From an uncultured Bacilli bacterium (GTDB lineage Bacteria; Bacillota_I; Bacilli_A; RF39; UBA660), in contig CANQQP010000002.1 of the NCBI GenBank assembly GCA_947626055.1, positions 1 through 56,620 on the forward strand: a stretch of 56,620 bases of DNA. Direction: 5' to 3'. Shown piece after piece: positions 7,440 through 28,149 of this stretch; within the stretch, counting starts at the first letter, position 1, and each line of letters begins with the position of its first letter. The position numbers and the translations under genes were made by a program. The notes below the pieces were generated by a model. That model had not been told where the DNA came from. It did not search any database and saw nothing but the letters and a program-made list of their open reading frames with translations.

Positions 7440-8177
7440 TTAACTCAGCTTCGTTAAACTTCTTGCATATTTACGATATTCATTTATTATATCGTGTGTG
7501 TTACCAATCTTTCTTATAGTTCCTTGATCTAACCATATCACCTTCTCACAAAGTTGTTCAATCATTGCTGTACTGTGTGAGACAATTAAAACCGTTCTTT
7601 TTTTATCATTAATTAACTCTAACATTTTATTATAACTTTTTTCCTGAAAATGAATGTCTCCTACTGATAAAACTTCATCAATTAATAAAATATCAGCATC
7701 TAAAATAGCCATTATAGAAAATGCTAATTTAGAATACATACCAGAAGAATATGTTTTAACAGGATTATAAATAAATTTACCTAGTTCCGAAAAATCAATA
7801 ATACTTTTTAATTTAGACTCAATTAATTTTTTTGAAAAACCTAATAACATTCCTGATAAAAAAATGTTTTCGTAACCAGATAATTCAGGGTCAAAGCCAG
7901 TTCCCAATGATAGTAAGTTAATAGTATTACCGTATAAATTTATTTTACCTTTATCAGGTTCAAAAATATTTGCAATTGTTTTTAATAAAGTAGATTTTCC
8001 ACTACCATTAGAACCAATTATACCTATAACCGTTCCTTTTTCTACATCAAAACTAACATTATGTAAAGCTGTAAATTTTTGCTTTTTGAATTTTTTTAAT
8101 ATACCTTTAGCTTCTTTTTCTTCTTTAATTGTATAATAATCTACTTCTATGTTTTTTACACTAATTGCTTTCATCAT
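7440..8177 (-). CDS. ABC-2 type polysaccharide/teichoic-acid exporter, ATP-binding subunit (Wzt/TagH-like, short form)
   Basis: 245 aa with Walker A GSNGSGKST, signature YSSGMYSKLAF, Walker B LLIDEVLSVGD and H-loop IVSHS. There is no C-terminal carbohydrate-binding extension. An ATGA overlap links it to the permease gene. Confidence 0.9.
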   Translation of the reverse strand: MMKAISVKNIEVDYYTIKEEKEAKGILKKFKKQKFTALHNVSFDVEKGTVIGIIGSNGSGKSTLLKTIANIFEPDKGKINLYGNTINLLSLGTGFDPELSGYENIFLSGMLLGFSKKLIESKLKSIIDFSELGKFIYNPVKTYSSGMYSKLAFSIMAILDADILLIDEVLSVGDIHFQEKSYNKMLELINDKKRTVLIVSHSTAMIEQLCEKVIWLDQGTIRKIGNTHDIINEYRKYARSLTKLS

Positions 8178-8956
8178 ATCACCTTTGAATAACTATTTTC
8201 GTATTTTTTTATTAATTTAAAACCTATAATATTAATAATAATACTTACTATTAACCAATTAAAAAGTAATAATAAATTAGGAGTAACATTATTAATCAGT
8301 ACATTTCTAGATTCATTAATTAAAGTGGCTATAGGATTAAATAATAAAAGCAATTTATTAAATGGCTGCGGTACTTTAGTACATATATTATAAAAAATAC
8401 CCGAAAAATAAAATACACATTTTAAGACAATATTAATAACATTATGTACATCTGTGTTATAAACCCCTAAATGCATTATTATTAAACTTATTCCAAACGT
8501 TAAAAGATATAAAACAATAAATATAGGTAAAAAATAAAGTATTTTAAAAGAAAAGGTTACTTTAAATAGTATCATAAAAACAAAAATAATTGCTAAAGAA
8601 ATTAAAAACTTAAACAGTATAACAAAAGTGTTAATAATTAATAAAATGTATTTTGGAATATATACTTTGTTAATAATATTACGATTACTTTTAATTAATT
8701 TAGAACTTGAGCTTATTGTACGATTAAAAAAATCCCATAATGTTAAACCAATAAATACAAAAATTGGAAAATTAGGTTCACCGCTTTTAAAGACAATAAT
8801 GACTACGAACATATAAATAAGCATCATAGCTAAAGGATTAATTACCCACCATAAGGAATTTAAATACGAGCCAGCTACTTCACTTTTTAATTTAGATTTA
8901 GTACTATACAATATATATGGAAAATTTTTTTTTATATTTTTAATTACAGTTTTCAT
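8174..8956 (-). CDS. ABC-2 type exporter permease (Wzm/TagG-like)
   Basis: 260-aa polytopic membrane protein, translationally coupled on both sides (TAATG upstream, ATGA downstream) and paired with the Wzt-like ATPase. Confidence 0.85.
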   Translation of the reverse strand: MKTVIKNIKKNFPYILYSTKSKLKSEVAGSYLNSLWWVINPLAMMLIYMFVVIIVFKSGEPNFPIFVFIGLTLWDFFNRTISSSSKLIKSNRNIINKVYIPKYILLIINTFVILFKFLISLAIIFVFMILFKVTFSFKILYFLPIFIVLYLLTFGISLIIMHLGVYNTDVHNVINIVLKCVFYFSGIFYNICTKVPQPFNKLLLLFNPIATLINESRNVLINNVTPNLLLLFNWLIVSIIINIIGFKLIKKYENSYSKVI

Positions 8957-9840: not shown

Positions 9841-9845
9841 ATTTT

Positions 9846-11525
9846 TTACTTCTCCTTACTTATTATATAAATAATTCCGTCTTCTAACAAGCCATACTTT
9901 TCTTCAATAGCTTTATTATTAACTTTAAACTCTTTTACCTTTAATCCATATTTTTCTATTCTATCAGCAAAATCTTTACCATACAATCTAACATGGTCCT
10001 CTTGACAAAACATATTCATTCTTTCTCTTGGATCAGTTATGCTGTTATCTTCAATTGTTTTTTCATTTGAAATACATACTGGTACAGTTAAAATTATCTT
10101 ACCATTAGGTTTTATTACTCTTTTTAATTCATTAAATGCTTTTTTCTCATCAACTATATGTTCTAATACATGATTACATATAATATAATCAAATTTATTA
10201 TCAGGAAAATCAATATTAGTAATATCAATTATCATGTCTCCATTTTTAGGATTAAGATCACCATTATAGTATTTTGTTTTTTTGCTAATTTTACTTCTAA
10301 ATTTTAAGTGATACTTAATTAATCTTTCCGGAGCAAAATGTAGAATTGTACAAGGTTTTTTTAACATATCAGTATATTTTTTGATGTAATAAAAAACTAA
10401 ACGATCTTTATCTTTTGCTCCACAAACTGGACATTGAAATCTTTCTCGATATCCAGCACCAATTATTTTATTATTAATAAAGATTTGATGATCTACCCCC
10501 CCCCCTTTCCATTTTTTGACTTTTGAAAAACATAAATTACACGTATGATTCCAACCAAAATTTTTAATTTTATTTCTCAATATTCTTAAAACCCAAAAAC
10601 GCTTTTTGCTTTTGAAATTATGATCATATATTCTAAACTTAGGATTATCATATAAATTATTGCCTAAAATACCAACATCAATAAATTTAAAATTATTCTT
10701 CCATAAAACATATGGTAGAGTTAATTGATCTCTTTCTGTTTCGCTTTTAATAAAATCTTGATACCAATCATTTAAGATAATTTTAGAATTTTTATTCTTT
10801 AAATCAATTGCTATAACACCAGCTTCAAATAATCCATAATTATAGGGAAAATTTTCCTCTTTAAATTCTTTAACTAATTGCTTAATATTTTTTTTATTAC
10901 CTTTGTTTAATTTAATGCATGCTTTAGCTTCTTCGTAAACATCATTTCTTTTAGAGTGGTCATGCATAGCTAAGCCAGTTTTATCATTTATATATCCAAA
11001 ACATTCCTCAATATTTGAAATAACTCTAACATTCCCATCTACATATAAAGCTAAATCATATTCTTTAAATAATTCATGCGGATGCATTTTAATATATCTA
11101 TTAATTAAAATCGGATTATTATTACATTTCTTTTTAATCTTTTCACTTATTTCTTTATATTGCCAACAACTTGTTTCTTTAATTATATTAGGATCATCCG
11201 AAAACACAAAATAATCAGTATTTTTAGTTCTTAAAAGAGGAGATCTCAATTTATCATATTTATTCATAATACAAGTATATACTACTTTATTACCCCGTTT
11301 TAAATTATAAGTATTCTTTAAAATTGTTGATATTTTATTTGCTTTATTAAATTTATTGTATATATAAGTTTTAAATGCAAAATATAATCTTTTGAATGCT
11401 AAATTTTTTACCAATATTTTAAACTTTCTTTTTCGGTTATTTTTTAGATAAATTTTTGAGTGTGTAAAATTTAAATATTCTTTATTTAATTCTTCAATAG
11501 CCTGTATATATTTTTTCTCATTCAT
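9846..11525 (-). CDS. DUF616-family putative glycosyltransferase fused to a zinc-ribbon and class I SAM methyltransferase
   Basis: The N-terminal ~330 aa are paralogous to the genes at 12220-13179 and 15503-16465 (NRYIKMHPHELF..LALYVDG...H..KR.D.YEEA.AC...RDQL). Then come CNLC...CPVC and an MT core (ICNHVLEHIVD, KPNGKIILTVP). The ORF-track start at 11534 is a GTG inside the SD AGGTGA, and the ATG at 11525 matches the paralog N-termini. Confidence 0.75.
   Translation of the reverse strand: MNEKKYIQAIEELNKEYLNFTHSKIYLKNNRKRKFKILVKNLAFKRLYFAFKTYIYNKFNKANKISTILKNTYNLKRGNKVVYTCIMNKYDKLRSPLLRTKNTDYFVFSDDPNIIKETSCWQYKEISEKIKKKCNNNPILINRYIKMHPHELFKEYDLALYVDGNVRVISNIEECFGYINDKTGLAMHDHSKRNDVYEEAKACIKLNKGNKKNIKQLVKEFKEENFPYNYGLFEAGVIAIDLKNKNSKIILNDWYQDFIKSETERDQLTLPYVLWKNNFKFIDVGILGNNLYDNPKFRIYDHNFKSKKRFWVLRILRNKIKNFGWNHTCNLCFSKVKKWKGGGVDHQIFINNKIIGAGYRERFQCPVCGAKDKDRLVFYYIKKYTDMLKKPCTILHFAPERLIKYHLKFRSKISKKTKYYNGDLNPKNGDMIIDITNIDFPDNKFDYIICNHVLEHIVDEKKAFNELKRVIKPNGKIILTVPVCISNEKTIEDNSITDPRERMNMFCQEDHVRLYGKDFADRIEKYGLKVKEFKVNNKAIEEKYGLLEDGIIYIISKEK
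10496..10505 (-). repeat. Poly-G tract (G10 on the coding strand) inside the GT-MT fusion gene
   Basis: C10 on the + strand encodes the GGG of KKWKGGGVDHQ. G9 creates an immediate TAG, and G11 gives a stop 7 codons later. Confidence 0.95.
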
Positions 11526-11530
11526 AATAA

Positions 11531-12226
11531 TCACCTTCTATTTGAAATTTTTTTATTTAAAATAATATAATTAGAAGTCAAACCTAATATTTTAATTTTT
11601 TTAAAACAGATAGCATCACTTAAATTTATTATATCTTTTTTACTTAGTAAATTTAAATTATTAATATTAGACCAAAAATCTTTTTTTAAAATTTTTAAAA
11701 TCTTTTGAAATAATTTCCAAGGCAACCAATGTAATAATGGAATAAAAGTATGCATTTCCAAAGGAAAGTAGCGATTTGGAGTAGTTATAAATATTTCTTT
11801 AGAAACTCTTAAACACTCTTCTAAAAAAAATTTTTGATCTTCTCTTGTTCCTACGTGTTCTAATACTGCAGAACAAAATAATTTATCAAATTGTTTATCT
11901 TTAAAAGGCAATGGTTGATGTGACTTAATTTTTACAAACGACTTTAATTTAAATTTTTTTATCATAAATTCACAATCTTCTATAGAAGCTATTGCTATTT
12001 TATATTTATATGGATACATTTTTTCAAAAAAGTTAGAATCTGCAAGACTTGTATCTGGTGTTACACCTAAATCCAAAATTTCATCTTTATTTGTTGGCTG
12101 ACAAATCTCAATAAATTTTTTAAACATTTTCTTTCTAACTTTTAAAGAAAAATATGTTTTGATTTTTAAAAAATGACTTTTATACCCAAAATAATCTATT
12201 GCTTCAGATTCTTTTTCTTTTAACAT
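11531..12226 (-). CDS. Class I SAM-dependent methyltransferase
   Basis: 231 aa with ILDLGVTPD (motif I-like), FDKLFCSAVLEHV and EIFITTPNR. It overlaps both neighbouring genes. Confidence 0.8.
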   Translation of the reverse strand: MLKEKESEAIDYFGYKSHFLKIKTYFSLKVRKKMFKKFIEICQPTNKDEILDLGVTPDTSLADSNFFEKMYPYKYKIAIASIEDCEFMIKKFKLKSFVKIKSHQPLPFKDKQFDKLFCSAVLEHVGTREDQKFFLEECLRVSKEIFITTPNRYFPLEMHTFIPLLHWLPWKLFQKILKILKKDFWSNINNLNLLSKKDIINLSDAICFKKIKILGLTSNYIILNKKISNRR

Positions 12227-13179
12227 TTATCTCTCCCCCGTTTTATTTTGTCATAGTGGTGAACATTTCTTCTAAATTTAGGATTGCTAGCCAAATTAAT
12301 ACCTAACACTCCCATATCCTCATAAGCATTATAATTCAATTTCCATAAAATATAAGTTAAAGACAGTTGGTCCCTACCTGTACCATTATCTATAAAGTGT
12401 CTCCACCAGCTATCCATTATTTTTTGAGTGTTTTGGTTTTTTAAATCAATTGCTATGACAGTAGCTTCAAATAATCCGCTATTATAAGGAAATTTCTCCT
12501 GTTTATATTTATTAATCAATTTTTTTATATTTTTAGCATTTCCCATAGATGCTTTTAAACAGGCCTCTGCTTCTTCATATATATTATTTCTTTTTGGATG
12601 CAAATGCATAGCAAGCCCTGTTTTATCATTTATTTTATAAAATAAACTTGATATATCTGACATAATTCGTACACTGCCATCAATATACAAGGCCAAATCG
12701 AAATCAGGAAATAATTCATGTGGATGCATTTTAATATATCTATTGATTAAAGTATAATTATTATTACATTTTTTCTTTATTATTTCTGGTATTTTTCGAT
12801 ATTCCCATAAATTAGTATCATTGGTGATATTCATATTATCTGAAAAAACAATATACGACGTATTTTCCGTATCTATCAAAGGACTATATAAAGTATCATA
12901 ATTATTTAAAATACATGTATAAACTACTCTTTTTCCCGTTTTCTTTTTATCTATTTCTTTGTAAGTTACTTCATAATTTTCTTTTATTCTTAAAATCCTA
13001 TGAGCTTTTAATTTTAAAGATTTTAGCTTGGTTTGTAAAGCTAATTTATAACGACCAGATTTAATTAATTTACGAATTAATATTCTATCTCTATATTTTT
13101 TATAATAAGGTGTATTATATAATTGTTTTATTTCTGTGTTTAAACTTTCAATAATATCAATATATTCTTCTTTTTTCAT
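12220..13179 (-). CDS. DUF616-family putative glycosyltransferase (paralog 2)
   Basis: 319 aa with the same conserved blocks as the other two paralogs, which also match plant/bacterial DUF616 proteins (R..K..PH.LFP, DG, H..R....EEA.A, RDQLS). SD AAGGGGA lies upstream. Confidence 0.75.
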   Translation of the reverse strand: MKKEEYIDIIESLNTEIKQLYNTPYYKKYRDRILIRKLIKSGRYKLALQTKLKSLKLKAHRILRIKENYEVTYKEIDKKKTGKRVVYTCILNNYDTLYSPLIDTENTSYIVFSDNMNITNDTNLWEYRKIPEIIKKKCNNNYTLINRYIKMHPHELFPDFDLALYIDGSVRIMSDISSLFYKINDKTGLAMHLHPKRNNIYEEAEACLKASMGNAKNIKKLINKYKQEKFPYNSGLFEATVIAIDLKNQNTQKIMDSWWRHFIDNGTGRDQLSLTYILWKLNYNAYEDMGVLGINLASNPKFRRNVHHYDKIKRGRDKC

Positions 13180-13199: not shown

Positions 13200-14171
13200 T
13201 TAATTATTTTTATACCATTTTAAAGTTTCTTCAAGACCTTTGGCAAAGTTATATTGTGGATTATAATTTAAATATTTCCTTGCCTTTGTTATATCTGCCT
13301 TACTACATTTAATATCTCCCCGGCGGGGGGATGCAAAAATGGGTTCTATATTTTTATTTAAATATTTACTGATTGAATTATAAATATCAATTAGTTGCGT
13401 TTCATCACCTAATGCAATATTAAAAACATTCCCCGCTATTTCATGTGAAGCCAAACAAGCTTTTAGATTTGCCTCAACTACATTCTGTACATAAGTAAAA
13501 TCACGACTTTGAGTCCCATCACCATTAATCGTTGGTCTTTCATTATTTATTAATTGTTTAATAAATTTAGGAATCACAGCAGCATAAGTACTATCAGGAT
13601 CCTGTCTTTTTCCAAATACATTAAAATAACGTAAACCATAGGTATCTAAGCCATAATGCATAGCATATTGTTTTGCCCATTGTTCATTATTCTTTTTTGT
13701 AACTGCATAGATAGACAAAGCTTCTCCCTCATATCCTTCTTTTTGGGGAAATACTTTACTATCACCATAAACTGAGGAACTAGAAGCATAAACAAATTTT
13801 TTAACATGGCAATGACGAGCAGCCTCCAACATGTTTACAGTACCTCCAATATTATTTTCACAGTAGAATTGTGGCATTTCCAATGAACGAGGTACGCTGC
13901 CCCAAGCAGCTTGATGCAATACATAATCTACAGATTCACAGGCTTTTAAACATGTTTCATAATCTTTAATGTCCCCTTTAATAAATTCATAATTTGGATT
14001 AGAAAGAAACATATCAACATTTTCTTGTTTTCCAGTTGACAAATCATCTAAACAACGCACTTTATAACCCATATCTAAAATAGCTTCACACAGATTTGAA
14101 CCTATAAAACCAGCACCCCCAGTCACTAAAAACAAAGAATCTTTAGAAAATTTTAAATCTTTTTCCTTCAT
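13200..14171 (-). CDS. NAD-dependent nucleotide-sugar epimerase (TviC/WbpP-like extended SDR)
   Basis: Carries VTGGAGFIGSNL, YASSSSVYG, YAVTKK and LRYFNVFGKRQDPDSTYAAVIPKF. The ATG at 14171 is preceded by GGAGG. The ORF-track extension to 14237 is read-through of the upstream gene's alternative frame. Confidence 0.8.
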   Translation of the reverse strand: MKEKDLKFSKDSLFLVTGGAGFIGSNLCEAILDMGYKVRCLDDLSTGKQENVDMFLSNPNYEFIKGDIKDYETCLKACESVDYVLHQAAWGSVPRSLEMPQFYCENNIGGTVNMLEAARHCHVKKFVYASSSSVYGDSKVFPQKEGYEGEALSIYAVTKKNNEQWAKQYAMHYGLDTYGLRYFNVFGKRQDPDSTYAAVIPKFIKQLINNERPTINGDGTQSRDFTYVQNVVEANLKACLASHEIAGNVFNIALGDETQLIDIYNSISKYLNKNIEPIFASPRRGDIKCSKADITKARKYLNYNPQYNFAKGLEETLKWYKNN

Positions 14172-15435
14172 TATAGCCTCCAATAAATATACCCCCCCCC
14201 TCTTCATATTTTGCTTTATTATATATCCCACAAACATCTAATAATATTTTTTGAGATGAATTGAAAAATTTATCCATATCTTTTATCTGCAATTTTTTAT
14301 ATTCATTATGAGCCACTGCCACTATTAAGGCATCAATATTTTTTAAATCTTTAATATTTGTTAATGTAACATCATAACTTCTTTTCACTTCATCAGGATT
14401 AGCTTTTGGGTCAGCGACCAATACTTTTATACCATATGATTTTAACTCTTTTTCTATATCAAAGACTTTACTATTACGTATATCATCACAATTTTCTTTA
14501 AATGTGCATCCTAAAATTGCTACTTTAGTCTCATTAATTTTCTTAGAACTCTTAGTTAATTTTTCGATACAAATATCAGTTATAAACTTACTCATTTTAT
14601 TATTTACTTTTCGACTAGTTAAAAGTAATGAGCTATTAATTCCTACTTTTTTAGCTTTAAAAATCAGATAATATGGATCAACACTGATGCAATGGCCTCC
14701 TACTAATCCAGGTTTAAAGTTTAAAAAATTCCATTTCGTACTGGCAGCAGCGAGAACTTCTTTTGTATCTATATTTAATTTATTAAATATAATGGAAATT
14801 TCATTCATAAATGCAATATTAATATCTCTTTGACAATTTTCAATCACTTTAGCAGCTTCAGCCACTTTTATACTAGGAGCTTTATATATATCAGCTAAAA
14901 TTGCTAAAGAATAAATTTTCGCTATTTCATTTGTTGTATTTCTATCGATACCCGCTACAACTTTTGTAATATTTTTAAATTGATGTTTTTTATCAGCAAC
15001 ATTTATGCGTTCTGGGGAATAACCAACCTTAAAGTCTTTACCACATTTCAAACCAGAAACATACTCCAATATGGGAATACAAATATCTTCGGTTACACCA
15101 GGATAAACCGTAGACTCATAAACAACGATACTTCCCTTTTGCAAATTTCGTCCTACAGTCTCAGTAGCTTGTTTTACTAGATTAAGGTTAGGCTCATTAT
15201 TTGTAAATATAGGAGTAGGCACAGCAATTATATAAAACATAGCTTCACGTAATTTATGAGGGTTAGTAGTAAATTCTAAACCTTTCTTGTTTTTTTTCAT
15301 CTTTTTTTCTGATATATCAAAGCCAATAACATTTACTTTTTTAGCAAAAGCTAAAGCAATAGGTAATCCTGTATAACCAAGACCCACCACTGCTAATTTT
15401 ATCTTTTTATTTATTAAATTTGAATATAACTGCAT
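14143..15435 (-). CDS. UDP-N-acetyl-hexosamine 6-dehydrogenase (TviB/WecC/Cap5O-like nucleotide-sugar dehydrogenase)
   Basis: 430 aa with N-terminal Rossmann motif AVVGLGYTGLP, a catalytic-Cys region GGHCISVDPYY and a C-terminal UDP-binding domain. The 3' end runs through a G9 tract and overlaps the epimerase start by 29 nt. Confidence 0.85.
   Translation of the reverse strand: MQLYSNLINKKIKLAVVGLGYTGLPIALAFAKKVNVIGFDISEKKMKKNKKGLEFTTNPHKLREAMFYIIAVPTPIFTNNEPNLNLVKQATETVGRNLQKGSIVVYESTVYPGVTEDICIPILEYVSGLKCGKDFKVGYSPERINVADKKHQFKNITKVVAGIDRNTTNEIAKIYSLAILADIYKAPSIKVAEAAKVIENCQRDINIAFMNEISIIFNKLNIDTKEVLAAASTKWNFLNFKPGLVGGHCISVDPYYLIFKAKKVGINSSLLLTSRKVNNKMSKFITDICIEKLTKSSKKINETKVAILGCTFKENCDDIRNSKVFDIEKELKSYGIKVLVADPKANPDEVKRSYDVTLTNIKDLKNIDALIVAVAHNEYKKLQIKDMDKFFNSSQKILLDVCGIYNKAKYEEGGGIFIGGYNEGKRFKIF
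14192..14200 (-). repeat. Poly-G tract (G9 on the coding strand) at the dehydrogenase/epimerase junction
   Basis: C9 on the + strand. G10 would end the dehydrogenase at a TAA overlapping the epimerase ATG (TAATG). G8 would fuse the two ORFs in frame. Confidence 0.95.
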
Positions 15436-15502: not shown

Positions 15503-16465
15503 TCATTTTTTATACCTAGTGATTTTGGTATTGTAATTATGAATATTTCGACGAAATTTATGGTTATCATTTAAATTGCTACCTAAAACACCCATATCAG
15601 AAGCTTTATAATTTAATTTCCATAAAATATAAGTTAAAGACAATTGATCTCTTCCTGTTTCACTTTCAATAAAATGTTGATACCAATAATTTAATATGTT
15701 TTTAGAATTTTTATTTTTTAAATCAATTGCTATAATACCAGCTTCAAATAATCCATAGTTATGTGGAAAACCCTCCTGCTTATATTTTTGAATTAATTTC
15801 TTAATATTTTTTTTATTTCCCAAAGATTGTCTTATACAAGCCTTTGCCTCTTCATAAATATCTTCTCTTTTGGGATGCAAATGCATAGCTAACCCCGTTT
15901 TATCATTAATTTTTGTAAATAAAGATGAAATATCCGAAATAACTCTCATACTTCCATCTACATATAAAGCTAAATCATATTCTTTAAATAATTCATGCGG
16001 ATGCATTTTAATATATCTATTAATTAAAATTGGATTATTATTACATTTCTTTTTTATATACAAAGGTATTGCCTTATATTTCCAACACTTTAAATTTTTA
16101 GTAATATCTTTATTATCTGAAAAAACTATATAACTAGTATTTTCTGTTTCTAAAAGGGGAGTGTATAGTGAGTCGTAATTATTCAAAATACATGTATATA
16201 AAACCTTTTTACCTGCTATTTTTTTATTGGTTTCGTTGTAAGTTGTTTCAGAAATTCTTTTATTTTCTTTTTTAATTAAAAACCTATTTAATTTAGTTTT
16301 TAAATAATTCAATTTTGTTCTAAACGCTAATTTATAACGCCCTGTTTTTATTAGTTTCCGAATTAGAATTTTATCTCTATGTTTTTTATAATAGGGCAAG
16401 CTATATAACTGTTTTAAATCTTGGTTTAACTCTTCTATCGCCTTGATATACTCTTCTTTGTCCAT
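15503..16465 (-). CDS. DUF616-family putative glycosyltransferase (paralog 3)
   Basis: 320 aa. Its N-terminus is nearly superimposable on paralog 2 (M.KEEYI..IE.LN...KQLY..PYYKK.RD.ILIRKLIK.GRYKLA). It shares a ~100-nt near-identical tract with paralog 1. Confidence 0.75.
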   Translation of the reverse strand: MDKEEYIKAIEELNQDLKQLYSLPYYKKHRDKILIRKLIKTGRYKLAFRTKLNYLKTKLNRFLIKKENKRISETTYNETNKKIAGKKVLYTCILNNYDSLYTPLLETENTSYIVFSDNKDITKNLKCWKYKAIPLYIKKKCNNNPILINRYIKMHPHELFKEYDLALYVDGSMRVISDISSLFTKINDKTGLAMHLHPKREDIYEEAKACIRQSLGNKKNIKKLIQKYKQEGFPHNYGLFEAGIIAIDLKNKNSKNILNYWYQHFIESETGRDQLSLTYILWKLNYKASDMGVLGSNLNDNHKFRRNIHNYNTKITRYKK

Positions 16466-16473
16466 ATATACAC

Positions 16474-19083
16474 CTATTTCTTTTCTAAAATATATATGTT
16501 GTATCCTAAGATCTTAAATAATCTCTTTTTATTTTTAATATTCTTGATATTAGCAATTTTAAATTCTAAAGCTAATTTTATATTATTTAAAAATTTATTT
16601 TTGATTAATATAATATCTCCAGCCTTAGATCTTAAACAACAATATTTTAATTCCATATTAAGTTCTTTAAAGAAACTAACCGCTTCATTAAAAGTTTGTT
16701 CCATAAAATGGAAACCTTTGGCTTTATTTCCAGTAGCTATTTTTAACCTAGATATGTCACTAGGACCTACATAAGAATTAGGAATTATTAAAATAGCTAA
16801 TCCTCCTTTTTTTATCTTATCCACCATTCTTTTGCATGTCTTCTCATATTCATCATCCACAATATGTTCTAAAACATTATCAGCGTAAAATATATCAATA
16901 GAATTATTTTTTATTTTTCCTAAAGCATCATAAAGATTTTTTTCGACTAAGCATATATTATTGGCCTTTTTAGCTATCTTTTTAGCAGTAGGAGATAAAA
17001 ATACATCACACCCTTGAATCGTTAATTCCTTCCTATTAATATTTTCTAAAGCATAGCCTTTGCCTACGCCAGCCTCATAAAATAATAAATTACTTTGCTT
17101 TTGCAGTTTCTTCTTTATTAATTGATTTAACAATTCCACCGTACTATCTTTAACACCATTTCCAATTGACGAATTTTCCATTTTTTTATTTTTACAATCG
17201 GCGATTTGAAAAACTTTTTGATATGACTTTTTCGTATAATCATAACGTTCTTTCGAAAAAGGGGGAAGCTTTTTGATATTTTTAGCAAAATACGTTTCTT
17301 CTTGATAATTCAAATTATCTAATTGAGCAATTGTCATTTTCGTTAAATTAACTTCTTTATTGTTTTTAGTAGTATAAATTTGATCAAGTTCTTTAACTTC
17401 TTTAATTTCTTTAATTACGTTATTATTCTTCCGCGTCCAGCTATATATAATTTTCAAACCAAAAATAATTGCTAAAAAACTAAGCATTGATTGAATAGGA
17501 TAGACAGGGGATAAATATTGGCATTTTTCTATTGCACTTTCATATTCGGTAGCTGCTACATAACCAACTACCACTATTCTAGCTAGGTATATACATAATA
17601 ACCCGCTCAATAAATATGCCTCTTTATAATATTTAAATTTAGTTTTAGGAATTAAAAACATTATTATTATAAAAATATAAAAAGCTAAAGAAATTACAAA
17701 TATAATAAAGTTACCTTTTTGAAAAATCAACAGAATAGATTTCATTAACTTCATGTTAACTGAATTTAATTCTTGCTTCGTATAACCAATTTTATTATAG
17801 GTAAGAGTACCATAAAATTTAGTATATTCATTTATGAAATTTTTATATTCTTCTTTTACATCTGGAATTCTTACATTAACATTCTCATAATTTAATTGGG
17901 TTGTAAAAGCTTTGGGAATATCCTTAATTAACTCTTCTTTTAAATCATCTTGAAAAGGAGCTACTAAACTACTTCTTTTTGACAAACATTCAATCTTATT
18001 GCTATCACATAAAGAATTAATTTCCGAAGCTAAGCGTTCATAATATTGTTTGGTGCTTGTAGCATCAGTACAGTATCCTTGCATACATACTGCCTCTCTT
18101 ACCGCCCAGTATAAAAAGCCTTCCTGAAAATCACGATATCTTTTGCCATTCTTATAAATGTCATGACGATACTTTGCGCTATCAGATCCTTCCAAGAATC
18201 CTTGCAATTCTTTAAAACTAGGGTTTAATTCGTATAATCTGGCGCGATCGTAACTATTTAAGGGCACACGTTTTAAATAATTAGTAGGTTTAATTCGCGT
18301 CAGAGCGCCATATGCGTCTTTAAATTCTTTAGAAGTAAAGTCATTTGTTACAAACCGATCATAACATATATAATTTAATGTACTTATAGTGATTGTATAT
18401 CCTAATAAAATAAAGGTAGGAATTCCAATCAAACAAAGGATCCTTTTAACTTTATTAAGACAGGTCTTATCAAAAATAATATATAAAATTGTCACTAAAA
18501 AAGCTAATATGATATAAGGTATAATCCATAAAGTTTCCTCGCGCGTGTACCATATTGAGGCTATAGTTACCCCCAGGATTGTTTGATAAAATATTAACTT
18601 TTTCAAACTACTTTTATAATGAAAAAACATTTCAAATGTTAAAGATACTAATAGCAAAATAAAAGAAATATATATCCCATCACGATAAACATAGGATACA
18701 GCATCCGAATAAGATATAGGATTAAATAATAAAATTATATAGACTAAAAGCAGAAACACTTTATTTTTATAAATATGTTTTAACATTTTAATAAAAGCTA
18801 AACAAGCAACAAAATATAGTAATTGTGTAGCAAATAAATAGCTTATATGCAATTTATAATTAAAAGCTATAAAAATAATACCGATGATGCCTTTACTTAA
18901 AGTAATATCATTATAATTTCCTAACCAATGCCCTTTTGCTAAGCTATATGCACGACTGGCAAACATACCATCATCGTGTGCAGTATGTTTAATCATCAAA
19001 GGCTGAATATGAACCATCCAACATTTTAAAATAAATAAAACTACAAATAAGATTTCTAGCCAATGCTTCTTAATAAATTTCAT
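16474..19083 (-). CDS. GT-C-like polytopic membrane glycosyltransferase (ArnT/PMT-like) fused to a C-terminal class I SAM methyltransferase
   Basis: 869 aa. It has ~8 N-terminal TM segments with an early loop HDDGMFASRAYSLAKGHW, a ~200-aa soluble loop and further TM segments. These are followed by YEAGVGKGY (motif I), FYADNVLEHIVDDE and GGLAILIIPN. Confidence 0.6.
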   Translation of the reverse strand: MKFIKKHWLEILFVVLFILKCWMVHIQPLMIKHTAHDDGMFASRAYSLAKGHWLGNYNDITLSKGIIGIIFIAFNYKLHISYLFATQLLYFVACLAFIKMLKHIYKNKVFLLLVYIILLFNPISYSDAVSYVYRDGIYISFILLLVSLTFEMFFHYKSSLKKLIFYQTILGVTIASIWYTREETLWIIPYIILAFLVTILYIIFDKTCLNKVKRILCLIGIPTFILLGYTITISTLNYICYDRFVTNDFTSKEFKDAYGALTRIKPTNYLKRVPLNSYDRARLYELNPSFKELQGFLEGSDSAKYRHDIYKNGKRYRDFQEGFLYWAVREAVCMQGYCTDATSTKQYYERLASEINSLCDSNKIECLSKRSSLVAPFQDDLKEELIKDIPKAFTTQLNYENVNVRIPDVKEEYKNFINEYTKFYGTLTYNKIGYTKQELNSVNMKLMKSILLIFQKGNFIIFVISLAFYIFIIIMFLIPKTKFKYYKEAYLLSGLLCIYLARIVVVGYVAATEYESAIEKCQYLSPVYPIQSMLSFLAIIFGLKIIYSWTRKNNNVIKEIKEVKELDQIYTTKNNKEVNLTKMTIAQLDNLNYQEETYFAKNIKKLPPFSKERYDYTKKSYQKVFQIADCKNKKMENSSIGNGVKDSTVELLNQLIKKKLQKQSNLLFYEAGVGKGYALENINRKELTIQGCDVFLSPTAKKIAKKANNICLVEKNLYDALGKIKNNSIDIFYADNVLEHIVDDEYEKTCKRMVDKIKKGGLAILIIPNSYVGPSDISRLKIATGNKAKGFHFMEQTFNEAVSFFKELNMELKYCCLRSKAGDIILIKNKFLNNIKLALEFKIANIKNIKNKKRLFKILGYNIYILEKK

Positions 19084-19084
19084 A

Positions 19085-19768
19085 CTACTTACCTAACTCT
19101 CTAAAAATTACTTTCATATGCCTTATTCCATCTCTTATTGTATTTAAGTGTGATTTTTTTCCTCTTTTATCCTTAAAAAAATCTATGGGGATTTCTTCTA
19201 TTTTTAAGTTGGCTTTTTTTATTTTGATGAGCATTTCACTAGCAAATTCCATACCATTAGAATTAAATGTGACTTTGGAAATACTGCCTTTATTTAAACC
19301 TCTTAATCCACAATTAAAATCATTAACATTAATTTTATAAAATTTTCTTCCTAAAAAGGAAATTAAAGGTGTACCGATATATTTATGAGAAAAAGGCATA
19401 GCTCCTTTTTCCATTTGCCCTAAAAATCGATTCCCAATAACTAAATCATTCCCCTTTTTTAATTCTTGATAAAATGAATTAATATATTTAAAAGAATAAC
19501 TTGAATCACAATCACCAAATATTATGTATTTTCCTTTAGCACTTTTTATACCTGTTTTTAGAGCTGCTCCATAGCCTCTTTGTTTTTCTTTAACCACTCT
19601 AACGTTGAATTTATGAGCAATTTCAAGGGAATTATCGTTACTACCATTGTCAATTACTAAAATTTCTGATTTAACTTTAAGCTTATTTAATTCATCCTTT
19701 ATCTCTTGAATAACATTCGCTAAGGTTTTTTCTTCATTTAAACATGGTAATAAAATCGTTAATTCCAT
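19085..19768 (-). CDS. GT2-family polyprenyl-phosphate glycosyltransferase (ArnC/GtrB/DPM1-like)
   Basis: Carries LLPCLNEE, VIDNGSNDNS, GYGAALKTG and FGDCDSSY (DXD-type). The ATG at 19768 is preceded by GGGAGGA, and the ORF-track start at 19780 is a TTG inside that SD region. Confidence 0.85.
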   Translation of the reverse strand: MELTILLPCLNEEKTLANVIQEIKDELNKLKVKSEILVIDNGSNDNSLEIAHKFNVRVVKEKQRGYGAALKTGIKSAKGKYIIFGDCDSSYSFKYINSFYQELKKGNDLVIGNRFLGQMEKGAMPFSHKYIGTPLISFLGRKFYKINVNDFNCGLRGLNKGSISKVTFNSNGMEFASEMLIKIKKANLKIEEIPIDFFKDKRGKKSHLNTIRDGIRHMKVIFRELGK

Positions 19769-19781
19769 AGTTCCTCCCAAT

Positions 19782-20546
19782 TTATTTTATATTTGGATTA
19801 TATTTCTTATTTTTTTCTCTAACAGTCTGCAATAAAGAAACATCAATACCTTTTTTTTCTGCTTGATTTATAATACTTGCTAAATCTTTCGGTAAACACG
19901 ATTTGCCATAGCCTCTGTTATCCGGGTAAACAAAAGTATGATCTTTATTTATACGTGGATCTAAAGTCCATACTTCTCTTAACTTACTATAGCTAATACC
20001 CATTGCTTGAGCAATATCATAAAATTCATTACAAAAAATAACTTTCATAGCATAATAAGCGTTTTCCATATATTTAGCAAGCTCTGCCGTGGATGAATCT
20101 ATAATACAAATATCAATGCTAGCGTTGTAAACTGTTTGATATACCTTAATAGCTTTTTCAACTGCTTCATCTTCTCCGCCTAAAGTGATCCACTTTCTTT
20201 CCCTTAAATCTTTAAAAGGGTGATCAACCGTTTCACCATAATATTCAGGTTGAAACACAATACTTGATTTATGATTAGCATTCTGCTTTTGGGTATATCC
20301 AACTGGTACTGTAGAGCGAATAATAATTAATTCTGTTTTAAGCCAAGCTAAAACTTCATCAACTGCACTAACATCACAGGATCCATCTTCCTTTTGAGGA
20401 GTAGGAACACAAACAAAAGCAACATCACACTTATTGATTTCTTCCTTACTTCCTATTTCCTTATATTTATCATACACAAAGGCATCTTGAAATAATTCTT
20501 TCATAGCCATACCAACATGACCATAGCCTACAATTCCTACTTTCAT
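19782..20546 (-). CDS. UDP-glucose/GDP-mannose dehydrogenase-like protein, short form lacking the C-terminal nucleotide-sugar-binding domain
   Basis: Carries the Rossmann motif VGIVGYGHVG and a catalytic-Cys motif GYGKSCLPKD (compare GFGGSCFPKD), but ends ~30 aa after it. The ATG at 20546 is preceded by GGAGG. Confidence 0.65.
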   Translation of the reverse strand: MKVGIVGYGHVGMAMKELFQDAFVYDKYKEIGSKEEINKCDVAFVCVPTPQKEDGSCDVSAVDEVLAWLKTELIIIRSTVPVGYTQKQNANHKSSIVFQPEYYGETVDHPFKDLRERKWITLGGEDEAVEKAIKVYQTVYNASIDICIIDSSTAELAKYMENAYYAMKVIFCNEFYDIAQAMGISYSKLREVWTLDPRINKDHTFVYPDNRGYGKSCLPKDLASIINQAEKKGIDVSLLQTVREKNKKYNPNIK

Positions 20547-20600
20547 AAAATCCTCCGATTCCCTACTAATCAAGTATAACACGAAAAAACTACTTTTTGG

Positions 20601-21722
20601 CTAATTATCTTTATTTTTTCGACAAATGTTAAAAACCTCTTTTTCCCATAATGAGCAAATTTTACTCGGTTCATATTGCCTACTGGACAAAAAAGCATTT
20701 TTCGATATTTTATTACTTAAATTTTCATTATCTAACAATTCTAGCATAGCTTTAGCTAGTTTATTACTATTTTTTATTGGCACTAATAGCCCATTGTCCT
20801 CATTTTTTATTAAATACTTAGGTCCCCCACATGGGCAATTGGTCGAAACACAAGGTATCCCTAAAGCCATCGCTTCCATTAAAGCATTAGGCATTCCTTC
20901 ATAATCACTAGCTAAAACAAACATCCTCGTTTTATAAATTGCTGTTTTAATATCATCTACTTCACCCTTAAATATAACTTTATTTTCTAAATTTAAATGT
21001 TTAACATAACTTTTAAGTTCTTTTTCTAATGGACCATTTCCATAAATTAAAAGTTTTAAATGTGGATACTTTACTAAAACTTTAAGAAAAGCTTCAATTA
21101 ACAATTTCTGATTCTTCTGAGTCACTAGTCGACCAACAGTGACAATATGTTCTAATCTTTTACCACTATAAGGTTTAGATATTAAAAATTTATAATCTAA
21201 AGGATTAGGAATAACTGTTAATTTTTCTTTTTTGAAAATTTTCGCAAAATACAAGTAAGCTTCATCAGTCTGTAACACTACTTTATCGGCTTTTTGATAC
21301 AAGTGTTTCATTACTATATTAATTATTTTATTTTTATATTCCGTATTAGGGTCATTTCTTACTGATATAATAGTCGGAATTTTATTTAATTGTCCATTAA
21401 ATTTTTTGAGTAACATTAATTTTAAGGAAGGCTCCGGCAAAAAACTAATAATTATATCCGGATTAATTTTTTTTATTTTCATCTGCATTTTTATTAATTT
21501 TATAAGCGATATTTTGGCTAAAATTTTCTGAAAATTTGATATTTTGCTTACTTTGGTCACACTAAATAAACTTACACTTTCATTTATTTCATATCTTATA
21601 TCTTTTTGGCGTAACATTAAAATAGCTACTTCATTTTTATTCGAAAAATGATTAGTCAAAATTGAAATAACTCTTTGAGCTCCTCCTTTTTCTAAATCTA
21701 GACAATTAAATAATATTTTCAT
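20601..21722 (-). CDS. GT4-family glycosyltransferase
   Basis: 373 aa with GT-B/GT4 C-terminal motifs (VGRLVTQKN, SDYEGMPNALMEAMALGIPCVSTN). SD AAGGAG lies upstream. Confidence 0.85.
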   Translation of the reverse strand: MKILFNCLDLEKGGAQRVISILTNHFSNKNEVAILMLRQKDIRYEINESVSLFSVTKVSKISNFQKILAKISLIKLIKMQMKIKKINPDIIISFLPEPSLKLMLLKKFNGQLNKIPTIISVRNDPNTEYKNKIINIVMKHLYQKADKVVLQTDEAYLYFAKIFKKEKLTVIPNPLDYKFLISKPYSGKRLEHIVTVGRLVTQKNQKLLIEAFLKVLVKYPHLKLLIYGNGPLEKELKSYVKHLNLENKVIFKGEVDDIKTAIYKTRMFVLASDYEGMPNALMEAMALGIPCVSTNCPCGGPKYLIKNEDNGLLVPIKNSNKLAKAMLELLDNENLSNKISKNAFLSSRQYEPSKICSLWEKEVFNICRKNKDN

Positions 21723-21738
21723 GATGACTCCTTACCAT

Positions 21739-22839
21739 TTATTTTATATTCAAAATTTCTAACATTTTTTTGTTTATCATATTAATATCAAATTTTTGGA
21801 CACACATTTTATAACTTTCATCACCCATCTGTTGTAAATTTGTCTCTTTTATCATTAGTTCCATTTTAGCAACTAAATCTTGAATATCTCGAGCTTTAAC
21901 AAAATACCCATTCACACCATCTTTAACGGTATTTTTACACCCTGGAGTATTAGTAGTTATCATAGGGCGTCCCATTGCCGCAGCTTCAAGTAAAGTTTTG
22001 GGAGTTCCCTCACGATAATAAGTAGGTAAAACAAAGATAGTATGTTTACTGATAAAATCCGCAACTTTATTAGTTTCAGGAATATAGTTTACTATGCTTT
22101 TATCCATTACTTTTAAAAATTTTTTATAATCTTTTTTATAACACTCATCAAAAGCGCCAATAAAAGTAAAAGAACTATCGGGATATTTATTTTTAATAAT
22201 TTTGGCAGCTTCAAGATACTCTGTTATCCCTTTTTCTTCAACAATACGTGAAACCATGATAAAAGATTTGTTTTTAGGTAATTTATTTTTTTTAAAAATG
22301 CGCAAATCTACCCCTGGTCCATCAATCAAAGCTATTTTGTCTTTTTCTATTAGCTGGTTTTGAACAAAATCGTTAATATCATCTTGATTTTGAAATATAA
22401 CTCTTTGATTATATTTAAATGCTTGTTTATATGCTTTATTACAAATATTTCTAATAATCTTCATTTTTAAATTATTAACTGAATATACTTGTCCCAAACC
22501 ACATACTAAAGAATATATTTCTTTAATACCAGCTAAATGAGCAGCAATTGAACCAAAAATAACAGGTTTAATAGTATAAGAAAAAACTTTATCTGGCTTT
22601 ATCGATTTTAAAATTTTTCTTAATCTCCAAAAATATAAAAAATTATTTACCGGAGATATTGAAGTTCTATTTAATTGCAAAGTTATTATTTTTATTCCCA
22701 TTTTTTTTAAACTATCTTCACATTTATTATCTGAAACAATAGCAATAACTTGATGTCCTCTGGCCATTATATCTGAAATTAATTGTCCATGAAAATTCAA
22801 AAGTGAAGAAGTTTTAGAAGCAATAACTACTACTTTCAT
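21739..22839 (-). CDS. GT4-family glycosyltransferase
   Basis: 366 aa with VSRIVEEKG and PTYYREGTPKTLLEAAAMGRPMITTN. An ATGA overlap links it to the upstream gene. Confidence 0.85.
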   Translation of the reverse strand: MKVVVIASKTSSLLNFHGQLISDIMARGHQVIAIVSDNKCEDSLKKMGIKIITLQLNRTSISPVNNFLYFWRLRKILKSIKPDKVFSYTIKPVIFGSIAAHLAGIKEIYSLVCGLGQVYSVNNLKMKIIRNICNKAYKQAFKYNQRVIFQNQDDINDFVQNQLIEKDKIALIDGPGVDLRIFKKNKLPKNKSFIMVSRIVEEKGITEYLEAAKIIKNKYPDSSFTFIGAFDECYKKDYKKFLKVMDKSIVNYIPETNKVADFISKHTIFVLPTYYREGTPKTLLEAAAMGRPMITTNTPGCKNTVKDGVNGYFVKARDIQDLVAKMELMIKETNLQQMGDESYKMCVQKFDINMINKKMLEILNIK

Positions 22840-24107: not shown

Positions 24108-24173
24108 AATTAATCCTACCAATCTAATTTAATTATGACAAAAAAAGTTAAATATGACAATCCTTAAATGTTA

Positions 24174-28110: not shown

Positions 28111-28149
28111 AACTATCTCCTAGGTTTTATTATATTTGAATTAAAACTA

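What the first reader, a model, noticed from the sequence alone, without database searches (positions are those of the whole stretch)
10490..10510. G10 tract exactly at the GT/methyltransferase domain junction: candidate slipped-strand phase switch that uncouples capping from glycosyl transfer
Scanning by eye, I found no G or C run longer than 6 elsewhere in this AT-rich window, apart from the two tracts in the island. This one is C10 on the + strand (10496-10505), that is G10 on the coding strand. It encodes the GGG of KKWKGGGVDHQ, between the CNLC and CPVC pairs of the zinc ribbon that opens the methyltransferase module of the DUF616::MT fusion.

I translated the alternative lengths. G9 produces an immediate TAG, and G11 produces a stop 7 codons later. 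Both OFF states leave a ~340-aa stand-alone DUF616 protein, about the size of the unfused paralogs (319 and 320 aa), and delete only the MT module. If the MT is a chain-terminating cap enzyme, tract length would toggle glycan capping or chain length rather than abolish synthesis.

Poly-G contingency loci in surface-glycan genes are classic in Campylobacter, Neisseria and Haemophilus. To my knowledge they are not an established feature of endospore-forming Firmicutes.
Basis: partly seen in the sequence, partly recalled or inferred. Interest (0 to 1): 0.75.

Follow-up and report, generated by a model that had tools for sequence, protein, structure and literature searches.

The report
Candidate poly-G switch in glycan gene
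A run of ten G's, highly improbable in this AT-rich gut bacterium, sits inside a fused sugar-transferase/methyltransferase gene so that gaining or losing one G would remove only the methyltransferase half. This looks like the on/off "contingency" switches known from Campylobacter, but no sequence data were available to show that it actually switches.

Summary
C10 lies at window 10496-10505, which is G10 on the coding strand. The only other G/C run of 7 or more in 56.6 kb (27% GC) is a G9 at 14192-14200 in the same glycan island. Chance does not explain the pair: no synonymous-codon resample out of 3000 gave two such runs.

Two corrections:
- The tract is about 30 residues inside the methyltransferase module, within its zinc ribbon, not exactly at the domain junction.
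- The "chain-terminating cap" reading is not supported. Wzt has no cap-binding domain, there is no similarity to WbdD, and the island holds two other methyltransferase-domain proteins.

New evidence:
- The second tract, as assembled, is one base out of the frame that restores the conserved YIYWRL* end of a TviB-like dehydrogenase. That is a footprint of slippage, or a length miscall.
- Orthologues in related species (63-82% identity) have no tracts.
- Unrelated Lachnospiraceae homologues carry a conserved G9 in the same zinc ribbon.

No read-level or between-strain length data could be obtained, so switching is unshown. Verdict: a credible candidate slipped-strand phase-variable glycan-modification locus, and a new member of a known kind.

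The parts
10496..10505 (-). Tract 1: G10 on the coding strand (GGG GGG GGG G), encoding G344-G346 and the first base of V347 of the fusion protein
10493..10495 (-). TAG read in frame immediately after the tract when it is G9 or G12 (OFF state, 346-aa or 347-aa product)
9846..11534 (-). 562-aa fusion gene: TOD1/MUCI70 (DUF616) glycosyltransferase-like module, linker helix, Cys4 zinc ribbon and class I SAM methyltransferase. The fusion is conserved in 7 relatives at 52-69% identity.
10584..11534 (-). DUF616 module (about aa 1-317). It is left intact by every out-of-frame tract length, and the 319-aa paralogue aligns to aa 4-312.
10422..10541 (-). Zinc ribbon C332-x2-C335 ... C368-x2-C371, with four invariant Cys across 14 fused and stand-alone homologues. 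Tract 1 lies inside it.
9846..10421 (-). Class I SAM-dependent methyltransferase core (Methyltransf_11/23/31), lost in OFF states
14192..14200 (-). Tract 2: G9, six codons before the conserved end of the TviB-like dehydrogenase and 12 nt upstream of the SD of the TviC-like epimerase. As assembled it is one base out of the conserved frame.
14143..15435 (-). TviB-like UDP-GlcNAc 6-dehydrogenase. G9 gives 430 aa with the tail GIFIGGYNEGKRFKIF*. G7 or G10 gives 420 or 421 aa ending YIYWRL*. G8 or G11 fuses it to the epimerase (744 or 745 aa).
13200..14171 (-). TviC-like UDP-GlcNAcA 4-epimerase (323 aa from ATG 14171). Its SD is the TGGAGG that also encodes the W-R of the conserved dehydrogenase end.
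7440..8956 (-). Wzt (245 aa, ABC_tran only, no Wzt_C domain) and Wzm (ABC-2 permease): an ABC-transporter-dependent glycan export pair
11531..13179 (-). 231-aa stand-alone methyltransferase and 319-aa DUF616 paralogue. The MT gene is absent from the syntenic loci of relatives L001 and L003.
15503..24122 (-). Rest of the glycan island: DUF616 paralogue (320 aa), 869-aa protein with an MT domain, GT2, a truncated nucleotide-sugar dehydrogenase-like ORF, two GT4, and a Wzy_C/O-antigen-ligase-like protein. The island lies between ksgA (24174-24971) and yabG (4460-5236).

Best explanation
Tract 1 is a lineage-specific hypermutable homopolymer, that is, a slipped-strand 'contingency' switch. It lies inside the coding sequence of a fused DUF616 (GT116-like uronic-acid transferase) and zinc-ribbon methyltransferase (MT) gene, in an ABC-transporter-dependent surface-glycan island of an uncultured, sporulation-gene-bearing gut Bacilli MAG.

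At G10 (or G7 or G13) the full bifunctional enzyme is made. A +/-1 slippage during replication stops translation at or just after the tract. That leaves a complete DUF616 module with a roughly 30-residue stub and no functional MT: the ribbon is cut between its two Cys pairs, and there is no SD-preceded restart.

The likely phenotype is heritable, reversible presence or absence of a methyl decoration on the glycan while the backbone is still made. Together with tract 2 (G9), which changes the C-terminus of the TviB-like dehydrogenase or fuses it to the TviC-like epimerase, this would generate combinatorial glycan variants within a clone. The likely selective agents are phage or host antibody.

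Shown: the tract, its improbability, the in-silico consequences of each length, the intact conserved MT in the ON frame, and the out-of-frame state of tract 2.

Inferred: that lengths actually vary at high frequency, that the tracts are maintained by selection, and what the MT methylates.
For: 1. Rarity. These are the only two G/C runs of 7 or more in 56.6 kb at 27% GC. Shuffles expect 0.03. No synonymous-codon resample out of 3000 gave two runs of 9 or more, and GGG is 10.8% of Gly codons.

2. Placement. Both tracts are on the coding strand, 3.7 kb apart, in one glycan island.

3. Length effects. Each +/-1 length gives a stop within 0-7 codons. The DUF616 module is whole in the truncated product.

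4. The MT module is not decaying. It keeps all 46 columns that are invariant across 14 homologues and folds confidently (pLDDT 92.7).

5. Orthologues. Those in L001-L004 encode the same positions as GCT GGG GGA, CCC GGA GGA, AGT GGA GGA and AGC GGA GGA, with no G/C run of 7 or more in 12-22 kb. The tract therefore needed several G-ward changes in an AT-biased genome.

6. Tract 2. The DNA downstream of it (TATATTTATTGGAGGCT) matches L003. The conserved Y-x-[YF]-W-R-L* end, present in L003, L004, L005 and L007, is out of frame at G9 and restored at G7 or G10. This is a footprint of a non-triplet length change.

7. Assembly quality. 24 A/T runs of 8-9 inside ORFs cause no frameshift, so the assembly is not generally indel-prone.

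8. Independent recurrence. Stand-alone homologues of the MT in Lachnospiraceae carry G9 in the same zinc ribbon. It is kept in three contigs whose proteins differ by 8%. Another Lachnospiraceae glycan locus has G9 in one MT-like ORF and G9 upstream of a second ORF that I did not annotate.

9. Precedents. Poly-G tracts in glycan and flagellar-modification genes, C-terminal switching and fuse/split switching are known in Helicobacter canadensis (PMC2823697). Homopolymer switches are known in spore formers (PMC9941203). From established knowledge, mononucleotide G/C runs of 9-10 are intrinsically slippage-prone.
Against: - No length polymorphism was observed. The species is represented by this one contig plus four 1.2-1.7 kb contigs at about 2x coverage that miss both tracts.
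- Predicted OFF-state products are absent from the 15-billion-protein collection.
- Flank scans of JGI metagenomes and GTDB genomes found nothing.
- The closest relatives, with the same locus architecture, lack both tracts.
- The tract is mid-gene rather than at the 5' end.
- The mismatch-repair status of the organism is unknown.
- Tract 2's G9 could be a homopolymer miscall.
- Firmicutes as a group avoid SSRs (PMC3315296).
Confidence: 0.55

Rival explanations
1. The switch is real but acts. The MT is the chain-terminating cap enzyme of an ABC-transporter-dependent pathway (WbdD or WsaE style), so tract length toggles capping and therefore chain length and export.
For: Wzm/Wzt, a Wzy_C-type protein and a GT::MT fusion occur together. 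The same component classes occur in the Geobacillus stearothermophilus S-layer glycan cluster, where the MT domain of the GT-fused WsaE makes the 2-O-methyl cap (PMC2943079).
Against: Wzt is 245 aa with only ABC_tran and no Wzt_C carbohydrate-binding module. From established knowledge of the O8/O9a, O12 and related systems, that module is what recognises a cap. The MT module has only generic class I SAM-MT similarity by fold and by sequence, and WbdD is not hit at E<=1. The island holds two other MT-domain proteins, 231 aa and 869 aa, which are equally good cap candidates. A non-stoichiometric methyl decoration, or methyl-esterification of a uronic acid, is at least as likely.
Confidence: 0.15
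2. The tract is an incidental mutational product, for example a slippage-driven expansion of a GGGGG seed like the one in L001. It is not maintained by selection. It is hypermutable, but it is only a mildly deleterious frameshift hotspot that will decay.
For: L001 has GGGGG at the homologous site. No relative has the tract. There is only one genome of the species. The Gly-Gly motif is conserved at protein level, so Gly codons are expected there.
Against: Two such tracts in one island are far beyond the codon-usage expectation (0 of 3000 resamples). Several G-ward substitutions would have to fix in a 27% GC genome. A homologous tract in Lachnospiraceae persists through 8% protein divergence with synonymous changes around it, which is not expected for a decaying accident.
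Confidence: 0.2
3. The tracts exist but their assembled lengths are unreliable, and the population is homogeneous. Tract 2 is really G10 and in frame, so there is no biological heterogeneity and no evidence of slippage.
For: The window is a short-read metagenome-assembled contig (relatives and sister contigs carry SPAdes-style NODE names). From general knowledge, long G runs are the homopolymers most prone to Illumina length errors. L049, at about 2x coverage, has an A5-to-A4 indel that splits a GT gene.
Against: 24 A/T runs of 8-9 inside ORFs are all in frame. Tract 1 is in frame, with conserved protein on both sides. Dark-cycle poly-G artefacts sit at read or contig ends, not inside conserved coding sequence. 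This rival removes the slippage footprint at tract 2, but it does not explain why the tracts exist.
Confidence: 0.15
4. The tract acts at the RNA level. Transcriptional slippage or ribosomal frameshifting on G10 yields a fixed mixture of full-length and truncated protein from one allele, rather than a heritable switch.
For: From general knowledge, RNA polymerase slippage on runs of 9 or more is documented in bacteria. Both products would be plausible proteins.
Against: The documented cases are mostly A/T runs. Nothing in the flanks resembles a frameshift stimulator, although no structure search was made. It does not account for tract 2 being out of frame in the DNA.
Confidence: 0.07

Closest known systems
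Poly-G contingency loci in capsule, LOS and flagellar-glycan modification genes of Campylobacter and Helicobacter (for example the H. canadensis phasome, PMC2823697; PhasomeIt survey of Campylobacter, PMC6321876)
   Same: A G/C homopolymer of 9 or more lies inside the ORF of a glycan-modifying enzyme, methyltransferases included, in an AT-rich genome. Several tracts cluster in one glycan locus, and +/-1 gives a premature stop. [quoted passage not shown]
   Different: The host is a Gram-positive-type gut Bacilli with sporulation genes, not an epsilonproteobacterium. Only two tracts are seen in 56 kb. Length variation is not demonstrated. The OFF state removes one domain of a fusion protein rather than the whole protein.
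Homopolymer phase switches in endospore formers: Bacillus subtilis swrA and Paenibacillus glucanolyticus flgG (PMC9941203)
   Same: Slipped-strand change in a coding mononucleotide run gives a reversible frameshift in a spore-forming Firmicute.
   Different: Those are A7-A8 runs near the 5' end of motility genes, and they are proven experimentally. Here the runs are G9 and G10, mid-gene or at the 3' end, in glycan genes, and unproven.
WsaE of Geobacillus stearothermophilus NRS 2004/3a and WbdD of E. coli O8/O9a (terminating methyltransferases in ABC-transporter-dependent glycan assembly; PMC2943079)
   Same: A methyltransferase is physically coupled to glycosyltransferase function in a Wzm/Wzt-dependent locus. 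In WsaE the MT is fused to GT domains, in a spore former.
   Different: No detectable specific homology. Wzt lacks the cap-binding domain. The GT partner is a TOD1/MUCI70 (DUF616) domain, not a rhamnosyl- or mannosyltransferase. Neither WsaE nor WbdD is known to be phase variable.
TOD1/MUCI70 (Pfam PF04765; plant MUCI70 = RGGAT1, a rhamnogalacturonan galacturonosyltransferase, PMC10576798)
   Same: The N-terminal module and two paralogues pass the Pfam gathering threshold. The island makes a uronic-acid donor through the TviB/TviC-like enzymes, which fits a uronic-acid transferase.
   Different: These are bacterial and soluble-looking, about 320 aa, with an N-terminal helical extension. Activity is untested.

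Membership tests
SSR-mediated (slipped-strand) translational phase variation / contingency locus | Uninterrupted mononucleotide run long enough to be hypermutable (G/C of about 7-8 or more) inside an ORF | tested here: met
   G10 at 10496-10505 and G9 at 14192-14200
SSR-mediated (slipped-strand) translational phase variation / contingency locus | Non-triplet length changes switch between a full-length and a truncated or altered product | tested here: met
   In silico: 562 aa against 346, 352 or 353 aa for tract 1; 421, 430 or 744 aa for tract 2
SSR-mediated (slipped-strand) translational phase variation / contingency locus | Tract over-represented relative to base and codon composition | tested here: met
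   Shuffles expect 0.03. Two runs of 9 or more arose in 0 of 3000 codon resamples.
SSR-mediated (slipped-strand) translational phase variation / contingency locus | Tract length differs within or between populations of the same strain or species | tested here: inconclusive
   No other sequence covers either tract. The only indirect sign is that tract 2 is assembled out of the conserved frame.
SSR-mediated (slipped-strand) translational phase variation / contingency locus | Measured high-frequency, reversible switching with a phenotype | not testable with these tools
   Needs cultures, read pile-ups or reporter fusions
SSR-mediated (slipped-strand) translational phase variation / contingency locus | The gene acts on a surface-exposed structure | tested here: met
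   The island encodes Wzm/Wzt, GT2, GT4, DUF616 GT-like, Wzy_C and TviB/TviC-like proteins
Chain-terminating cap methyltransferase of ABC-transporter-dependent glycans (WbdD / WsaE type) | Wzm/Wzt exporter in the locus | tested here: met
   ORFs 7440-8177 and 8174-8956
Chain-terminating cap methyltransferase of ABC-transporter-dependent glycans (WbdD / WsaE type) | Wzt carries a C-terminal carbohydrate-binding module that recognises the capped terminus | tested here: not met
   Wzt is 245 aa, with Pfam hits only to ABC_tran and P-loop families and no Wzt_C
Chain-terminating cap methyltransferase of ABC-transporter-dependent glycans (WbdD / WsaE type) | Specific sequence or structural relationship of the MT to WbdD or WsaE | tested here: not met
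   phmmer against the PDB at E<=1 and the Foldseek top 50 return only generic class I SAM-MTs; WbdD is absent. No WsaE sequence was at hand, so WsaE was not compared directly.
Chain-terminating cap methyltransferase of ABC-transporter-dependent glycans (WbdD / WsaE type) | Methyl group at the non-reducing terminus that controls chain length | not testable with these tools
   Needs glycan chemistry
C-terminal phase variation / phase-variable gene fusion (Snyder et al. 2010, H. canadensis) | Homopolymer near the 3' end, so that frames differ only in the C-terminal tail or read through into the next gene | tested here: met
   Tract 2: tails YIYWRL* or GIFIGGYNEGKRFKIF*, or a 744-aa dehydrogenase-epimerase fusion. 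The precedent was read.
TOD1/MUCI70 (DUF616, PF04765) glycosyltransferase-like family | Pfam gathering threshold passed | tested here: met
   37.6, 52.6 and 45.2 bits against a cut-off of 21.4 for the fusion and the two paralogues
Class I SAM-dependent methyltransferases | Methyltransf_11/23/31 match above threshold and a Rossmann-like fold | tested here: met
   48.3 bits against 21.2. Foldseek probability is 1.00 to many class I MTs.

The most novel reading that the evidence does not exclude
Poly-G contingency tracts are a recurrent, so far unrecognised feature of surface-glycan methyltransferase genes in spore-forming gut Firmicutes. They would have arisen independently in a Bacilli lineage (this window) and in Lachnospiraceae (L011, L051, L052, L040), preferentially inside the Gly-rich zinc ribbon of one MT family. 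In fused enzymes they would work as 'domain uncouplers' that switch off a decoration without stopping glycan synthesis. That would give commensal Gram-positives a Campylobacter-like phasome for evading phage and IgA.
Probability: 0.3. Interest if true: 0.7.

Novelty: new member of a known kind. Interest (0 to 1): 0.5.

Why it matters
If the tracts do switch, an uncultured gut Firmicute varies its surface-glycan decoration stochastically. It would do so by the slipped-strand mechanism that is textbook for Campylobacter, Neisseria and Haemophilus, but that I did not find described for glycan genes of spore-forming Gram-positives.

That would bear on how commensals cope with phage and secretory IgA. 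It would also flag homopolymer 'frameshifts' in MAG annotations of glycan loci as possible biology rather than error. Finally, it would offer a natural example in which a phase switch removes one catalytic module of a fusion enzyme and keeps the other.

The question is directly testable from existing reads.

Tried and rejected
1. Other copies of the species, sought to compare tract lengths.
- The 90% clusters of the island proteins are singletons.
- Exact look-ups of neighbouring proteins found four contigs at about 2x coverage (L047-L050, 99.9-100% identical). They cover 8706-10415 and 11057-12318 only, and so miss both tracts.

2. Exact look-ups of predicted alternative-length products. All were absent.
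- Tract 1: the G8, G9 and G11 products.
- The possible downstream MT ORFs created in OFF states.
- Tract 2: the G7 and G10 products. The G8 and G11 dehydrogenase-epimerase fusions were not looked up.
- The G8 and G10 products of the Lachnospiraceae homologue.

3. Flank-pattern DNA scans with a variable gap. JGI metagenomes gave 0 hits for both tracts, and GTDB species genomes gave 0 hits for tract 1.

4. Scoring the G9 and G10 versions of the dehydrogenase against the NCBIfam TviB model. The scores were identical, because the model match ends at residue 401, before the tract. This cannot tell which tail is functional.

5. Fold and sequence searches to identify the MT's substrate class gave only generic class I SAM-MTs.

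6. Literature searches for poly-G phase variation in Clostridia or Firmicutes glycan genes returned nothing on point. Two apparent C. difficile hits were 'poly-gamma-glutamate' and 'poly-guanylated cDNA'.

7. Explanations considered and rejected.
- The tract is a 2-colour-chemistry poly-G artefact. Rejected because it lies inside conserved, in-frame coding sequence.
- The island was recently imported from a poly-G-rich donor. Rejected because GC content and synteny match relatives that lack the tracts.
Full report
**1. The observation**

The coding (-) strand of ORF 9846..11534 reads ...AAA TGG AAA GGG GGG GGG GTA GAT CAT.... The run is C10 on the + strand at 10496-10505. A census of the window (56,620 nt, 27.4% GC) finds only one other G/C run of 7 or more, a C9 at 14192-14200, plus two runs of 6.

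Dinucleotide-preserving shuffles expect 0.03 matches to G9, and none of 100 shuffles reached the observed count.

A stricter null keeps every protein sequence and redraws synonymous codons from the window's own usage, in which GGG is 10.8% of Gly codons. It gave at least one run of 9 or more in 34 of 3000 resamples, and two or more in none. This null is conservative, because it keeps the GGG tripeptides, and the window has only four of those in 17,764 codons.

- G9 gives an immediate TAG (346 aa).
- G8 and G11 give a stop 7 codons later (352 and 353 aa).
- G7, G10 and G13 are in frame.

**2. The gene and its surroundings**

The 562-aa protein has a TOD1/MUCI70 (DUF616) glycosyltransferase-like domain (residues 74-280) and a class I SAM methyltransferase (MT) domain. 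Seven relatives at 52-69% identity have the same fusion, so the fusion is ancestral to the group.

Four Cys (C332, C335, C368, C371) are invariant across fused and stand-alone homologues. The tract's glycines sit between the two pairs.

An AlphaFold model built on 47 sequences is confident (mean pLDDT 92.7). Its only confidence dip is at model residues 301-310, followed by a helix and then the beta-hairpins of the ribbon. The 319-aa paralogue aligns to fusion residues 4-312. The junction is therefore about 30 residues upstream of the tract, and the tract lies inside the first element of the MT module.

Truncation leaves a whole DUF616 module and half a zinc ribbon. In the G9 state two ATGs just upstream of the tract open a 221-aa or 228-aa MT ORF. 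It lacks the first Cys pair and has no Shine-Dalgarno sequence, so OFF most likely means no MT activity.

The island runs from about 5.5 to 24.1 kb, between yabG and ksgA. It encodes:
- Wzm and Wzt;
- a WaaS/CpsH-type GT;
- three DUF616 proteins;
- three MT-domain proteins;
- GT2 and two GT4;
- a Wzy_C protein;
- a formyltransferase;
- a TviB-like dehydrogenase and a TviC-like epimerase.

Plant MUCI70 is a galacturonosyltransferase (PMC10576798). That fits a locus that makes UDP-GalNAcA. This link is an inference.

The window also carries gyrA, mfd, spoVT, yabG, divIC and comK. This places it near the replication origin of a Bacilli-type genome with sporulation genes. Its relatives are rabbit-gut and other gut MAGs labelled 'uncultured Bacilli'.

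**3. Orthologues**

In L001-L004 (63-69% identical proteins, same locus architecture) the homologous codons are GCT GGG GGA, CCC GGA GGA, AGT GGA GGA and AGC GGA GGA. Those loci (12-22 kb each) contain no G/C run of 7 or more. The tract is therefore derived in this lineage, and it needed several G-ward changes in an AT-rich genome.

I do not accept it as one. These are different species, and contingency tracts are typically lineage-specific.

**4. The second tract**

The G9 at 14192-14200 lies six codons before the end of the TviB-like dehydrogenase. Orthologues in L003 and L004 (80-82% identity), L007 and L005 all end Y-x-[YF]-W-R-L*. In L003, L004 and L007 the TGGAGG that encodes W-R doubles as the epimerase's Shine-Dalgarno sequence.

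In the window the DNA after the tract (TATATTTATTGGAGGCT) matches L003, but at G9 it is read out of frame. The three frames give:
- G9: a tail of GIFIGGYNEGKRFKIF*, which runs over the epimerase start.
- G7 or G10: the conserved YIYWRL* end is restored.
- G8 or G11: the two enzymes are fused (744 or 745 aa).

The in-frame G10 version is also one residue longer than the orthologues. So this tract has undergone expansion and at least one non-triplet change, unless its length is miscalled.

Against a generally indel-prone assembly, 24 A/T runs of 8-9 lie inside ORFs and none breaks a frame.

C-terminal switching and a phase-variable choice between separate and fused proteins have been described for poly-G tracts in Helicobacter canadensis (PMC2823697).

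**5. Search for length polymorphism**

The species is essentially unsampled. The island proteins are singletons at 90% identity. Four contigs at about 2x coverage from three other ENA assemblies are 99.9-100% identical but stop short of both tracts.

Predicted alternative-length products are not in the protein collection. Flank scans of JGI metagenomes and GTDB genomes found nothing. Switching is therefore unshown.

**6. Independent recurrence**

While scanning the fetched loci I found a G9 inside a stand-alone homologue of the MT (43% identity) in Lachnospiraceae UBA7205. It encodes the conserved I-[IVT]-G-G-G-[YV]-R motif, again between the two Cys pairs.

Two Logan contigs whose protein is 92% identical keep the same G9, despite synonymous and non-synonymous changes around it. 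Another Lachnospiraceae glycan locus (L040) has G9 in codons 43-46 of an MT-like ORF. It has a second G9 about 85 nt upstream of a 315-aa ORF that I did not annotate.

All observed lengths are in frame, but the look-ups can only retrieve in-frame products, so this says nothing about OFF states. The recurrence, and the persistence through divergence, argue against a mere accident.

**7. What the switch would do**

The capping hypothesis has a real precedent. WsaE of G. stearothermophilus is a GT-fused methyltransferase that makes the terminating 2-O-methyl cap in a Wzm/Wzt pathway (PMC2943079). Here, however:
- Wzt is 245 aa with no carbohydrate-binding domain.
- The MT shows only generic class I similarity, with WbdD absent at E<=1.
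- Two other MT-domain proteins are present in the island.

I therefore favour a variable methyl decoration of the glycan. Its position is unknown, and methyl-esterification of the uronic acid is one possibility. Capping is a minority alternative.

**8. Literature context**

Firmicutes as a group avoid SSRs (PMC3315296). Homopolymer switches are proven in spore formers, but as poly-A runs in motility genes (PMC9941203). My searches found no report of poly-G switches in glycan genes of such organisms. That is an absence in the searched library, not proof that none exists.

**9. Verdict**

The interpretation as a slipped-strand switch that removes the MT module is the best explanation (confidence about 0.55), but it rests on sequence logic and indirect evidence. 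The 'exactly at the junction' and 'cap' parts are not supported. It is a new member of a known kind of system, in an unusual host, and it is testable from existing reads.

Noticed in passing
window 14192-14200 (with 14143-15435 and 13200-14171): A second poly-G tract (G9) lies at the 3' end of a TviB-like dehydrogenase. It is assembled one base out of the frame that restores the conserved YIYWRL* end. G8 or G11 would fuse the dehydrogenase to the TviC-like epimerase.
   Followed up: yes
L011:10097-10105; L051:3382-3390; L052:622-630: Stand-alone Lachnospiraceae homologues of the MT module carry a G9 encoding the conserved GGG of I-T-G-G-G-Y-R inside the same zinc ribbon. The tract is kept in contigs whose proteins are only 92% identical.
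   Followed up: partly
L040:16417-16425 and L040:12911-12919: Another Lachnospiraceae glycan locus has G9 in codons 43-46 of a 311-aa MT-like ORF. It has a second G9 about 85 nt upstream of a 315-aa ORF that was not annotated.
   Followed up: no
window 8925-8933: An A9 run on the coding strand lies at codon 8 of wzm (the ABC-2 permease), a typical position for an ON/OFF homopolymer. It has the same length in the two other-sample contigs that cover it (L049, L050).
   Followed up: partly
L049:1121 (window ~9294): In one contig at about 2x coverage from another sample, an A5-to-A4 deletion splits the 294-aa WaaS/CpsH-type glycosyltransferase into 188 and 108 aa. At that depth it could be a sequencing error.
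   Followed up: partly
window 19782-20582: A 266-aa nucleotide-sugar dehydrogenase-like ORF lacks the C-terminal UDP-binding domain. The same truncated form (266-267 aa) is kept in L001 and L003, so it is a conserved short form rather than a fresh frameshift.
   Followed up: partly
window 11531-12226: The stand-alone 231-aa methyltransferase just upstream of the fusion gene is absent from the otherwise syntenic loci of L001 and L003. L001 also lacks the TviB/TviC/DUF616 block.
   Followed up: partly
window 31874-33088: An AAA_14/DUF4143 ATPase gives a very strong match to the PADLOC candidate defence family PDC-S01 (E 3e-153). Downstream of it (27022-31779) lie an HD-domain protein and three ORFs with no family match. 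The Fic protein at 38805-39461 weakly matches PDC-S04.
   Followed up: no
L005:4458-7640: A relative encodes a 745-aa protein (P0022) with dehydrogenase and DUF616 domains. In the fetched locus, however, the dehydrogenase reading frame ends in a stop codon (about L005:5727) roughly 1 kb before the DUF616 match begins (about 6735). The fusion therefore needs checking.
   Followed up: no
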